Assembly (NCBI GenBank): GCA_009914755.4
Contig: CP086569.2
Coordinates: 640,001-704,000, forward strand
From: the human T2T-CHM13v2.0 reference genome, Homo sapiens
Length of the DNA: 64,000 nt
Reading direction: 5' to 3'
The notes below the pieces were generated by a model that had not been told where the DNA came from, did not search any database, and worked only from the letters and a program-made list of their open reading frames with translations. Positions 51,340-53,682 of the stretch are shown here, piece by piece. Position 1 is the stretch's first letter. Each line of letters opens with the position of its first letter. The position numbers and the translations under genes were made by a program.

Positions 51340-52195
51340 CTCAAAGAAAATGTGGTACATCTACACCATGGAATACTACGCAACCCTGAAAAGAAACAAA
51401 ATCATGGGTTTTTTTTGCAGCAACATGGATGTAGCTGGAGGCCATTATCTTTTTAAAATTATTTTTATTATTTTTTATTTTTTCTATTCTACTTTAAGTT
51501 CTGGGGTATATGTGCAGAATGTGCAGGGTTGTTACATAGGTATACATGTGCCATAGTGATTTGCTGCACCCATCAACCCATCATCTACATTAGGTGTTTC
51601 TCATAATGCTCTCCCTCCCCCCCCAGTCCCCCACCCCTGCAACAGGCCCCAGTGTATGATGTTCCCCTCTCCGGGTCCATGTGTTCTCATTGTTCAACTC
51701 TCACTTATGAGTGAGAACATGTGGTGTTTGGTTTTCTGTTCCTGTGTGAATTTGCTGAGAATGATGGTTTCCAGCTTCATCCATGTCCCCCTGCAAAGGA
51801 CATGAACTCATCCTTTTTCATGGCTGCATAGTATTCCAAGGTGTCTATGTGCTACATTTTCTTTATCCAGTCTATCACTGATGAGCATTTGGGTTGGTTC
51901 CGTGTCTTTGCTATTGTGAACAGTGTGGAGGCCATTATCTTAAGTAAATTCACAGAATGCTGCACATTCTCACTTATAAGTGGGAGCTAAATGTTGTGTA
52001 TACGTAGATGCAGAGAAGGGAACAGATACTGAGGTCTAGTTAGGGGGAGAGAGGAAGGTAGAAGCACAAGAGTTGAAAAAACCAACTGCAGGGTGTTATG
52101 CTCACTACCTGGGTGATGGGATCACTCATACCCCAGACCTCTACATCACACATGGTACCCATGTAATAAACCTGTACATGTACCTCCCGAATCTA
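51340..52195 (+). mobile_element. L1 3'UTR (sense) interrupted by a nested antisense L1 fragment
   Basis: The 5' part at 51340-51450 (aaatgtggtacatctacaccatggaatactacgcaaccctgaaaag...ggatgtagctggaggccattatc) and the 3' part at 51936-52195 (tggaggccattatcttaagtaaattcacagaatgctgcacattctcacttataagtgggagctaaatgttg ... acctgtacatgtacctcccgaatctaaactg) are contiguous in the L1 consensus. Confidence 0.8.
51453..51935 (-). mobile_element. 5'-truncated L1 3'-end fragment (~480 bp), antisense, nested in the L1 above with a 14-bp TSD
   Basis: tactttaagttctggggtatatgtgcagaatgtgcagggttgttacataggtatacatgtgccatagtgatttgctgcaccc ... tgagaatgatggtttccagcttcatccatgtcc. The TSD tggaggccattatc lies at 51437-51450 and again at 51936-51949. 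Confidence 0.8.
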
Positions 52196-52295
52196 AACTG
52201 CTCCAACATTTGCCCCAGCAATTCCAAGACTGGTCATCTACCCAAAGGAAAAGAAGTCATTCTACCAAAAAGACAAATGCATGGTAAAGTTCCTT

Positions 52296-52578
52296 TTTTT
52301 TTTTTTTGAGATGGAGTCTCGCTCTGTTGCCCAGGCTGGAGTGCAGTAGCAATCTCGGCTCACTGCAACCTCTGCCTCCCAGGTTCAGGCGATTCTCCTG
52401 TCTCAGCCTCCTGAGCAGCTGGGATTACAGGCATGTGCCACCACGCCTGGCTCAGTTTTGTATTTTTAGTAGAGATAGGGTTTCACCATGTTGATCAGGC
52501 TGGTCTCGAACTCCTGACCTCAGGTGATCTGCCCACCTCAGCCCTCCAGAGTGCTGGGATTACAGTGCCCAGCCCTGT
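52296..52578 (-). mobile_element. Alu, antisense, nested in the L1
   Basis: T14 gagatggagtctcgctctgttgcccaggctggagtgcagtagcaatctcggc ... gctgggattacagtgcccagcc. Confidence 0.9.
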
Positions 52579-52650
52579 AAGGTTCATCACAGCACGACTC
52601 ACAATAGGAAAGTCATGGAATCGACCTAGTTGTCCATCAGTAGGGGATCA

Positions 52651-53450
52651 GATAAAGCAAATGTGGTTCTTCTACACCATGGAATACTACACAGCCACGA
52701 AAAAGAATAAAATCATGTCCTTTGCAGCCACGTGGTTGTAGCTGAAGGGCATTATGCTTAATGAATTAACCCAAGAACAGAAAACTCAAATACCACACGT
52801 TCTCAACTGGATAAAGCAATTGTGGCCCTTCTGCATCATGGAATACTACACAGCCATGAAAAAGAATAAAATCATGTCTTTGCAGCCACATGGATGCAGC
52901 TGAAGGGCATTATGCTTAGTGAATTAATGCCAGGAACAGAAAATCGAATACTACATGTTCTCAACTAGATAAAGCAAATGTGGCCCTTCTACAGCATGGA
53001 ATACTACAGAGTCATGAAAAAGAATAAAATCATGTCTTTGCAGGCACATGGATGCAGCTGAAGGGCATTATGCTTAGTGAATTAATGCCAGAAACAGAAA
53101 ATGAATACTACATGTTCTCAACTAGATAAAGCAAATGTGGTCCTTCTGCATCATGCATCATGGAATACTACACAGCCATGAAAAAGAATAAAATCATGTC
53201 TTTGCAGCCTCATGGATGCAGCTGAAGGGCATTATGCTTAGTGAATTAATGCCAGAAACAGAAAATCAAATACCACATGTTCTCAATTAGATAAAGCAAA
53301 TGGGGTCCTTCTGCATCATGGAATACTACACAGCAATGAAAAACAATAAAATCATGCCCTTTGTATTCACATGGATGAAGCTGAAGGGCACTATGCTTAG
53401 TGAATTAATGCCAGTAACAGAAAATCAAATACCACATGTTCTTGCTTATA
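52651..53450 (+). repeat. 160-bp tandem array x5 derived from an L1 3'UTR segment
   Basis: Unit starts (gataaagcaaatgtgg) lie at 52651, 52810, 52968, 53125 and 53290. Each unit runs gataaagcaaatgtgg.ccttctgcatcatggaatactacacagccatgaaaaagaataaaatcatgtctttgcagccacatggatgcagctgaagggcattatgcttagtgaattaatgccag.aacagaaaatcaaataccacatgttctcaactagat. Confidence 0.9.
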
Positions 53451-53682
53451 GGTGGGAGCTAAACGTTGCCTGCGCCTGGACACAATGAAGGGACACCACA
53501 GACCCTCAGGACTAATAGAGCAGGAAGCAGGGGCAGGGGTACCAGCGTTGAAAAACTACCCTGAGGTTCTTGGAATGTCAGGCAGAAGGCAGCGACTGGA
53601 GAGATCTTTGGGTCACGGATTTTTCTGTTGCATTTTCTTGCCTGTTTGTTTGTTTTTTTCTGTCTCTCTCTCTCTTTCTTTT

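What the first reader, a model, noticed from the sequence alone, without database searches (positions are those of the whole stretch)
51340..53640. L1 3'UTR converted into a 160-bp minisatellite, inside a nested L1-in-L1 and Alu-in-L1 cluster
Five tandem copies (157-165-bp period, 52651-53450) of the L1 3'UTR segment spanning 'gataaagaaaatgtgg ... gcatgttctcactcatag' sit inside an L1 ORF2-3'/3'UTR fragment. Upstream, an independent L1 3'UTR piece starts with the same unit and carries a nested antisense L1 with a clean 14-bp TSD (tggaggccattatc). Amplification of an L1 UTR segment into a minisatellite is uncommon and makes a lineage-specific VNTR.
Basis: seen in the sequence. Interest (0 to 1): 0.55.

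Follow-up and report, generated by a model that had tools for sequence, protein, structure and literature searches.

The report
Old minisatellite made from L1 ORF2 end
A 158-bp piece of a dead L1 retrotransposon, from the end of its ORF2 coding region and not its 3'UTR, was copied head-to-tail five times; the array is shared with other primates, so it is an old, ordinary transposon-derived minisatellite.

Summary
Tandem Repeats Finder reports one array at 52650-53442 with period 158, 5.0 copies and 89% matches. All four internal junctions share one breakpoint. No poly-A or target-site duplication lies between units. The 14-bp duplication around the nested antisense L1 is exact.

Two parts of the interpretation are wrong.
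- The unit is not 3'UTR. It aligns to human L1 ORF2p residues about 1219-1270 of 1275. The ORF2 stop codon lies 15 nt after the array.
- The array is not lineage-specific in any narrow sense. A junction search of metagenome contigs returned six primate contigs colinear with this locus, with flanks about 89-92% identical to the window. They carry the same array, the same breakpoints and both flanking Alus. Three show 5 units, one shows 6, and two are cut short.

Six unit types exist in that clade, and the window has five of them. Terminal units are the most diverged. Mosaic units suggest unequal exchange, but assembly artefact cannot be excluded.

All reading frames are broken, and conservation matches the neutral flanks.

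Transposon-derived minisatellites are common: 7,276 in human, 601 of them from L1 (PMC3389668). This window holds an Alu-derived array and a probable second. Verdict: an ordinary, old member of a known kind, of low interest.

The parts
52647..53444 (+). Five-unit tandem array. Each unit corresponds to L1 ORF2 codons about 1219-1270. Units: u1 52647-52805, u2 52806-52963, u3 52964-53120, u4 53121-53285, u5 53286-53444.
   Evidence: TRF period 158, 5.0 copies, 89% matches, score 1216. Unit coordinates. Pairwise identities: u2-u4 94-96%, u1 80-87%, u5 81-91%. ORF2p mapping. There are 11-17 stop codons in each frame.
52799..52819 (+). Junction u1/u2 (GTTCTCA|ACTGGATAAAGCAA). The same breakpoint recurs at 52957, 53114 and 53279.
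   Evidence: 4 matches against 0 expected. No poly-A or TSD between units (sequence).
52199..53565 (+). The L1 copy that hosts the array (called L1#2 here). This part covers its ORF2 3' region from about codon 1167, the array, the ORF2 stop TAA at 53460-53462, and the first part of the 3'UTR.
   Evidence: phmmer hit to human ORF2p residues 1170-1265, E = 4.6e-29. Translation. The 3'UTR aligns to the 3'UTR of the upstream L1 as far as 53555.
52294..52583 (-). AluS-type element inserted into the ORF2 part of L1#2. It is flanked by an approximately 10-bp degenerate TSD, GTAAAGTTC / GTAAGGTTC.
   Evidence: family D2. AluS block match at 52484 on the minus strand. The ORF2 reading resumes across the Alu, KDKCMVKF | ITARLTIGK. 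The Alu is present in contigs L001, L004 and L006.
53566..54136 (.). A roughly 570-bp interruption of the L1#2 3'UTR. It contains a minus-strand AluS-type element (53703-53992) whose T-rich tail begins at 53675.
   Evidence: Contig L007 is colinear across the interruption through to 54246.
54137..54254 (+). Distal 3'UTR of L1#2 and its A-rich tail (ataataataataaataaaaa).
   Evidence: 78% identical to the 3'UTR end of the upstream L1 at 52098-52195 (family D6). Sequence read.
51343..52198 (+). A separate, older-looking 5'-truncated L1 (called L1#1 here). It runs from about ORF2 codon 1221 to near the end of the 3'UTR, is split by the nested L1, and abuts L1#2 directly.
   Evidence: Translation KKMWYIYTMEYY...FSLISGS* once the nested insert is removed. 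It is 70-77% identical to the array units (family D4).
51450..51925 (-). Nested antisense 5'-truncated L1 carrying the ORF2 C-terminus, 3'UTR and an A-rich tail. It is flanked by an exact 14-bp TSD at 51436-51449 and 51926-51939.
   Evidence: (I1-I12).

Best explanation
This is a single-locus, transposon-derived minisatellite with no detectable function.

A 5'-truncated, already dead L1 copy lies at 52199-54254. One 158-bp internal segment of it was duplicated in tandem. That segment is ORF2 codons about 1219-1270 and ends five codons before the stop. The join was essentially blunt: TTCTCA|ACTGGATAAAG, with at most 1-2 nt of microhomology.

The duplicate then provided homology for out-of-register pairing, by unequal sister-chromatid or homologue exchange, or by replication slippage. 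That expanded the array stepwise to at least 5-6 units. All of this happened before the window's lineage split from the primates represented by the metagenome contigs.

Since then the array has decayed at the neutral rate, with occasional gain, loss or fusion of single units.

Shown: the anatomy, the shared breakpoint, the coding origin of the unit, the presence of the array in other primates, and the broken reading frames.

Inferred: that amplification happened in place after insertion, that unequal exchange was the mechanism, and that there is no function.
For: - One array with four identical-breakpoint junctions and no poly-A or TSD between units.
- The unit is the C-terminal coding part of ORF2, and the stop codon follows the last unit.
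- All six primate contigs found with the junction motif come from this same locus. They are colinear through both flanking Alus and the 3'UTR. No other locus carries the junction, so this is a single-locus repeat.
- Flank identity to the window is 91-92.5% over 240 nt and 89-92% over longer flanks, apart from the low-coverage contig L002 (78-86%). The contigs are 95-99% identical to each other, a species-like pattern.
- Unit types group by position across species: u1 with u1, D with u4, E with u5. The array therefore predates the split.
- Edge units are the most diverged and central units the most alike, at 94-96%. This is the pattern expected from out-of-register exchange.
- Mosaic units are present. 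L001_u2 and L006_u2 are type A at the 5' end (2-3 mismatches in 48) and type B at the 3' end (0 in 111). L005_u4 is type D at the 5' end (1 in 85) and type E at the 3' end (0 in 74).
- There are 11-17 stop codons per frame.
- Orthologous unit identity of 88-97% is about the same as the flank identity, so there is no sign of constraint.
- Such arrays are common (PMC3389668). Two other arrays in this window read as Alu-like: 5285-5722, confirmed by AluS blocks spaced 135 bp, and 25564-25900, judged only by reading the TRF consensus.
Against: - The comparison sequences are short-read metagenome contigs at 2.5-12x coverage. Several are demonstrably chimeric: L005 on its left part, L004 on its right flank, and L001 beyond the Alu.
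- A de Bruijn assembler can skip a unit at a shared k-mer. That produces exactly the 'mosaic unit plus one fewer copy' pattern, and it would do so reproducibly. The evidence for unequal exchange and for 5-versus-6 copy variation is therefore weak.
- The host species of the contigs are unknown. Paralogy rather than orthology is not formally excluded.
- Whether the first duplication arose in the chromosome or during reverse transcription of this one insertion cannot be told from these data.
- No L1 consensus library (RepeatMasker or Dfam) was available, so the subfamily and insertion age of the host L1 are undetermined.
Confidence: 0.85

Rival explanations
1. The array was created during retrotransposition of this one element, or already existed in its source element, rather than by later chromosomal duplication. 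One route would be the reverse transcriptase switching back on its RNA template during target-primed reverse transcription.
For: The junction is blunt and has no long flanking direct repeats. PMC3389668 notes that only about 6% of TE-derived tandem repeats fit the classical slippage or direct-repeat models, and suggests some begin during retrotransposition.
Against: All six junction-bearing primate contigs map to this one locus and none to other L1 copies, which argues against a source-element origin. Unit-to-unit identities in the window range from 80% to 96%, which fits stepwise growth better than a single burst. A one-off template-switch origin for the first duplication cannot be excluded.
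Confidence: 0.1
2. The five units are five independent 5'-truncated L1 insertions stacked head to tail. This is the refutation test the first reader named.
For: None found. L1 elements do insert into one another nearby.
Against: Every unit ends at the same base, five codons before the ORF2 stop. Each lacks the whole 3'UTR and poly-A, and no TSDs are present. All four junctions are the same sequence.
Confidence: 0.01
3. The array is an active, copy-number-variable VNTR or has been co-opted, for example as a regulatory or nucleosome-positioning element, and is not merely decaying neutral DNA.
For: Unit counts of 5 and 6 and mosaic units are seen among the primate contigs. The central units of the window are more alike (94-96%) than the central units of the contigs (84-91%), which is compatible with homogenisation in the window's lineage. 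The unit length of 158 bp is close to nucleosome size. The array lies about 1.4 kb upstream of a second, 170-bp array.
Against: Units are 4-20% diverged and AT-rich (38% GC, 4 CpG). That is unlike hypervariable GC-rich minisatellites. Copy number is nearly constant across about 8-10% sequence divergence. Orthologous units are no better conserved than the flanks. The differences between contigs may be assembly artefacts.
Confidence: 0.05

Closest known systems
Single-locus TE-derived tandem repeats ('slTRs') of the human genome (Ahmed & Liang 2012, PMC3389668)
   Same: An internal piece of a transposable-element copy is duplicated head to tail in place. It occurs at one locus, has a few units, and shows local unit-to-unit descent with slow expansion over evolutionary time. 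L1 contributes hundreds of such repeats.
   Different: That catalogue required at least 95% identity among units and at least 40% GC. This array has 89% matches and 38% GC, so it is older and more decayed than the catalogued set and would have been filtered out.
L1-derived satellite DNAs: PROsat of Phodopus roborovskii and Pvc20 of the harbour seal (both from ORF2), and the common cetacean satellite (from the L1 3' end), as reviewed in PMC9659126
   Same: The tandem unit derives from the ORF2 or 3'-terminal part of a mammalian L1.
   Different: Satellite DNAs generally form long, multi-locus arrays (my own knowledge). Here there are five units at a single euchromatic, Alu-dense locus.
Mouse L1Md promoter monomers and the tandem repeats carried in L1PA and LTR12 consensus sequences
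   Same: These are tandem repeats inside a retrotransposon (PMC6454616 abstract; PMC3389668).
   Different: Those repeats belong to the element's consensus and spread by retrotransposition to many loci. This junction was found only at one locus, and it lies in the coding end of ORF2, not in a UTR.

Membership tests
TE-derived minisatellite (single-locus) | Head-to-tail repeats with a unit longer than about 10-20 bp and at least 2 copies | tested here: met
   TRF: period 158, 5.0 copies, score 1216.
TE-derived minisatellite (single-locus) | The unit is homologous to an internal segment of a transposable element, and the array is embedded colinearly in that TE copy | tested here: met
   ORF2p residues 1170-1265 align across the upstream L1 and the first unit, E = 4.6e-29. 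The last unit runs on into ...LIGGS* and the 3'UTR.
TE-derived minisatellite (single-locus) | The array and its junction occur at one genomic locus only | tested here: inconclusive
   The junction is found only here in the 64-kb window. All 6 primate hits in the metagenome contigs are this same locus. No complete primate genome could be searched.
   The unit corresponds to codons about 1219-1270 of 1275. The stop codon TAA at 53460-53462 lies 15 nt after the array.
LINE-1 retrotransposon copy (host element) | ORF2 homology, followed by a 3'UTR and an A-rich tail | tested here: met
   The tail ataataataataaataaaaa at about 54236-54254 was read.
LINE-1 retrotransposon copy (host element) | Flanking target-site duplication, and assignment to a named subfamily | not testable with these tools
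   No TSD is visible. The 5' end abuts the tail of the upstream L1 at 52198/52199, which suggests insertion into an A-rich tail. No RepeatMasker or Dfam library was available.
Hypervariable minisatellite / VNTR | Copy-number polymorphism within populations and a high germline mutation rate | not testable with these tools
   Only cross-species short-read contigs are available. They show 5, 5, 5, 6, at least 4 and at least 3 units, and artefact is not excluded.
Hypervariable minisatellite / VNTR | High similarity among units and GC-rich composition | tested here: not met
   89% matches, pairwise identity 80-96%, 38% GC.
L1-derived satellite DNA | Long arrays of many units, usually at multiple or heterochromatic loci | tested here: not met
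   Five units at one locus, in a window where 50 of 51 AluS/AluY-block matches lie outside the array region's own Alus, i.e. Alu-dense sequence.

The most novel reading that the evidence does not exclude
The last roughly 52 codons of L1 ORF2 may be a recurrent seed for nucleosome-sized (about 158 bp) tandem amplification. This locus would then be an arrested early stage of the process that produced L1-derived satellites in cetaceans, seals and hamsters. Alternatively, the array may still vary between 5 and 6 or more copies within living populations through unequal exchange. The evidence here does not exclude either reading, but it does not favour them.
Probability: 0.07. Interest if true: 0.35.

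Novelty: new member of a known kind. Interest (0 to 1): 0.15.

Why it matters
It matters little in itself. It is one more example of a dead transposon fragment seeding a short tandem array, a process already counted in the thousands in the human genome.

The useful results are corrections. The amplified piece is ORF2 coding sequence, not 3'UTR. The array is old and shared among primates, not a recent lineage-specific VNTR.

If the copy-number differences and mosaic units in the other primates are real, the locus is a tidy small case of array evolution by unequal exchange. It has six distinguishable unit types that can be tracked across species.

Tried and rejected
- Pfam scan of the translated units. 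It gave only sub-threshold chance hits (DUF2024, DUF7687, Peptidase_S49) and no L1-specific family. The PDB ORF2p sequence search was used instead.
- Junction scan of viral contigs gave 0 hits. The scan of prokaryotic genome contigs gave one hit, L008, matching 42 nt at 85% in a Balneolaceae MAG. Metagenome locus L003 matched only the 21-mer. Both L003 and L008 are chance matches.
- I tried to identify the window's species or locus by exact-protein look-up of two local ORFs. Neither is on record.
- I tried to trace the metagenome accessions in the literature and found no papers.
- I looked for coding exons to place the window. Every ORF of 130 aa or more that I read lay in Alu or simple-repeat sequence, so I ran no further search on it.
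- TRF's alternative 322-bp period gives no better match (88% against 89%), so I rejected a higher-order two-unit repeat.
- I first read the contigs as three lineages about 9% apart. That was an artefact of out-of-register unit alignment. The right flank shows one clade, 95-99% identical internally and about 8% from the window.
- I considered dating the amplification against the Alu insertions and decided against it. A consensus of five to six stepwise-derived units underestimates age, and no curated Alu or L1 consensus was available.

Full report
**Observation**

Tandem Repeats Finder reports one array at 52650-53442 with period 158, 5.0 copies, 89% matches and score 1216. An alternative 322-bp period fits no better (88%). 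Reading the sequence and placing boundaries at the junction gives five units:

| Unit | Coordinates | Length (nt) |
|---|---|---|
| u1 | 52647-52805 | 159 |
| u2 | 52806-52963 | 158 |
| u3 | 52964-53120 | 157 |
| u4 | 53121-53285 | 165 |
| u5 | 53286-53444 | 159 |

The extra 7 nt of u4 are a TGCATCA micro-duplication.

The junction motif GTTCTCAAYTRGATAAAGCAA occurs exactly four times in the 64-kb window, at 52799, 52957, 53114 and 53279. Shuffled sequence gives none. Every unit therefore ends and restarts at the same base...TTCTCA|ACTGGATAAAG....

Nothing resembling a poly-A tail or a target-site duplication lies between units.

**What the unit is**

Translating the region and searching the PDB sequence set aligns the upstream L1 and the first unit to human LINE-1 ORF2p residues 1170-1265 of 1275. 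The hits are 8sxt and 8uw3, with E = 4.6e-29. By that alignment the unit spans about residue W1219, in the motif DWIKKMW, to about S1270.

The last unit runs on into ...LIGGS*, with the stop codon TAA at 53460-53462. The whole array therefore lies inside ORF2 coding sequence, and the 3'UTR begins 15 nt after it.

A Pfam scan gave only chance sub-threshold hits. The array has 11-17 stop codons in every frame, so it encodes nothing.

**Surroundings**

- The host L1, called L1#2 here, runs from 52199 (about ORF2 codon 1167) to an A-rich tail at about 54254.
- L1#2 is interrupted by a minus-strand AluS-type element at 52294-52583 with a degenerate TSD of about 10 bp. The ORF2 reading resumes across this Alu.
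- L1#2 is interrupted again by about 570 bp at 53566-54136, which contains another minus-strand Alu at 53703-53992.
- Directly upstream lies a separate L1, called L1#1 here, at about 51343-52198. It is only 70-78% identical to L1#2 (families D4 and D6).
- L1#1 has almost no tail and abuts the 5' end of L1#2. I infer, but did not show, that L1#2 inserted into the A-tail of L1#1.
- L1#1 carries a 476-bp antisense L1 3' end at 51450-51925, flanked by the exact 14-bp duplication TGGAGGCCATTATC. Its reverse complement reads LFTIAKT..IDWIKKM..TWMKLETIILSKFTQEQKTKHHMFSLISES*.

The 'nested cluster' description is therefore correct. L1#1 becoming recognisable 7 nt inside the unit start looks like coincidence. 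Its 5' edge is ambiguous, and it is much more diverged from the units than the units are from each other.

**Related sequences elsewhere**

I scanned three public collections for the junction motif.

- Viral contigs gave no hits.
- Prokaryotic genomes gave one chance match, L008.
- Metagenome contigs gave seven loci. One of them, L003, is a chance 21-mer match.
- The other six (L001, L002, L004-L007) align colinearly with this locus. The alignments run through the upstream Alu, the array, the proximal 3'UTR and the downstream Alu, and in L007 on to the distal L1 3'UTR. Overall identity is 89-91%.

In the 240 nt just after the array, the contigs other than L004 are 95-99% identical to each other and 91-92.5% identical to the window. 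L004 is excluded there because its right flank is chimeric. Longer flanks give 89-92%, apart from the low-coverage contig L002 at 78-86%. No contig is identical to the window.

This is the pattern of orthologues from several other primate species, presumably host DNA in primate-associated metagenomes. It is not the pattern of paralogues within one genome.

The window contains AluY-type diagnostic blocks. From general knowledge of Alu subfamilies, that places it in a catarrhine. A flank divergence of about 8-10% is in the range I would expect for a hominoid versus Old World monkey comparison in CpG-rich Alu sequence. The species are not identified, and the direction of the comparison is unknown.

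**Array evolution**

The contigs show the following unit counts:

| Contig | Units | Note |
|---|---|---|
| L001 | 5 | chimeric beyond the downstream Alu |
| L006 | 5 | |
| L002 | 5 | about 2.5x coverage |
| L004 | 6 | right flank is another L1 (chimeric) |
| L005 | at least 4 | left 3.7 kb is non-primate (chimeric) |
| L007 | at least 3 | cut by the contig end |

The site-by-site alignment distinguishes six unit types in the contig clade: u1, A, B, C, D and E. The window has counterparts of u1, A, C, D and E, but not B.

Units group by position across species in a neighbour-joining tree. An array of at least five to six units therefore existed before the split.

Within the window, the central units are 94-96% identical and the edge units 80-91%. 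In the contigs, most unit pairs are 83-91% identical; the highest are D against E at 91-92% in L001 and L006 and 94% in L004.

Some contig units are clean mosaics:

- L001_u2 and L006_u2 match type A at the 5' end (2-3 mismatches in 48) and type B at the 3' end (0 in 111).
- L005_u4 matches type D at the 5' end (1 in 85) and type E at the 3' end (0 in 74).

This is what unequal crossing-over that removes one unit would leave. It is also what a short-read de Bruijn assembler produces when it jumps between units at a shared k-mer, and it would do so reproducibly. I therefore treat the mosaic units and the 5-versus-6 difference as suggestive only.

Orthologous units are 88-97% identical, which is about the same as the flanks. 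There is no sign of selective constraint.

**Mechanism (best account)**

1. A blunt tandem duplication of 158 bp occurred inside an inert L1 copy.
2. The array grew stepwise by out-of-register exchange or replication slippage to at least 5-6 units. This happened before the split seen here.
3. Since then the array has decayed neutrally, with occasional loss of a unit.

The anatomy, the shared breakpoint, the single-locus distribution among available hits, and the age relative to the split are shown. The in-place, post-insertion timing of the first duplication and the exchange mechanism are inferred. An origin by template switching during the reverse transcription of this one insertion cannot be excluded.

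**Comparison with what is known**

Ahmed & Liang (PMC3389668) found 7,276 TE-derived mini/satellites in human, which is 23% of the total. Of these, 601 come from L1 in addition to repeats carried in the L1PA consensus. Most are single-locus. They are thought to expand slowly by local unit duplication, and most lack the hallmarks of the classical initiation models.

Zattera & Bruschi (PMC9659126) list L1 ORF2-derived satellites (PROsat and Pvc20) and the cetacean satellite derived from the L1 3' end.

This window alone holds a 135-bp x 3.2 array at 5285-5722 that is Alu-derived, shown by AluS-block matches spaced 135 bp. A 141-bp x 2.4 array at 25564-25900 also looks Alu-like on reading its TRF consensus, which I did not test further.

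The finding is thus a new instance of a well-known kind. It is older and more decayed than the catalogued sets: 89% unit matches against their 95% cut-off, and 38% GC against their 40% cut-off.

**Verdict**

This is an ordinary, ancient L1-ORF2-derived minisatellite. It is not 3'UTR, not narrowly lineage-specific and not rare. Interest is low (0.15).

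Noticed in passing
window 54825-55802: A second, unrelated tandem array about 570 bp downstream of the L1 tail. It has a 170-bp period, 5.8 copies and 95% matches, and is GC-rich (GGGTGTGCTGACCTCAGTGGGGTGTCC...). It looked non-TE on reading and is much more homogeneous than the L1-derived array.
   Followed up: no
window 5285-5722 and 25564-25900: Two arrays made of an internal Alu-like segment: 135 bp x 3.2 at 95% matches, and 141 bp x 2.0-2.4 at 87-96% matches. AluS-block matches at 5350, 5485 and 5620, spaced 135 bp, confirm the first. The second was judged only by reading its TRF consensus.
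   Followed up: partly
window 29828-30886: A 339-bp x 3.1 tandem repeat at 95% matches, purine-rich (GGAGACAGAGGAGGAGACACAGACACAGAGG...). Its origin was not examined.
   Followed up: no
window 41086-41368; 42731-44064; 34016-34662; 62013-63047; 26365-27608: Unusually many AT-rich mini- and microsatellite arrays for a 64-kb window. They include a 32-bp x 8.8 array at 99% matches (41086-41368) and a degenerate (AGAT)n tract of about 1.2 kb. The window as a whole seems prone to tandem repeats.
   Followed up: no
whole window: Very high Alu density. The AluS/AluY diagnostic block matches 51 distinct positions in 64 kb, a few of them AluY-like, for example at 40530 and 50250. No convincing protein-coding ORF was seen among ORFs of 130 aa or more.
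   Followed up: partly
window 53675-53714: The Alu at 53703-53992 has a T-rich tail of about 40 nt at 94% T, with a longest uninterrupted T run of 36. In the contigs from other primates the longest T run in the same tail is only 9-15, preceded by a variable (CT)n tract. This is either tail expansion in the window's lineage or compression in the short-read assemblies.
   Followed up: partly
L005:1-3711; L004:1144-1825; L001 (window-oriented) 1518-3144: The metagenome contigs are chimeric at repeats. In L005 the array is joined to 3.7 kb with no similarity to the window, which looks non-primate. L004 continues into a different L1 3'UTR. L001 and L006 diverge from the window and from each other beyond the downstream Alu.
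   Followed up: partly
window u3 (52964-53120) versus L002 unit 4: The 3' 73 nt of window unit u3 are identical (0 mismatches) to unit 4 of contig L002, although the flanks differ by about 8%. The same region in the L001/L004 clade carries 13 clustered differences. This could be chance, a conversion tract in one clade, or mixed-host assembly.
   Followed up: no
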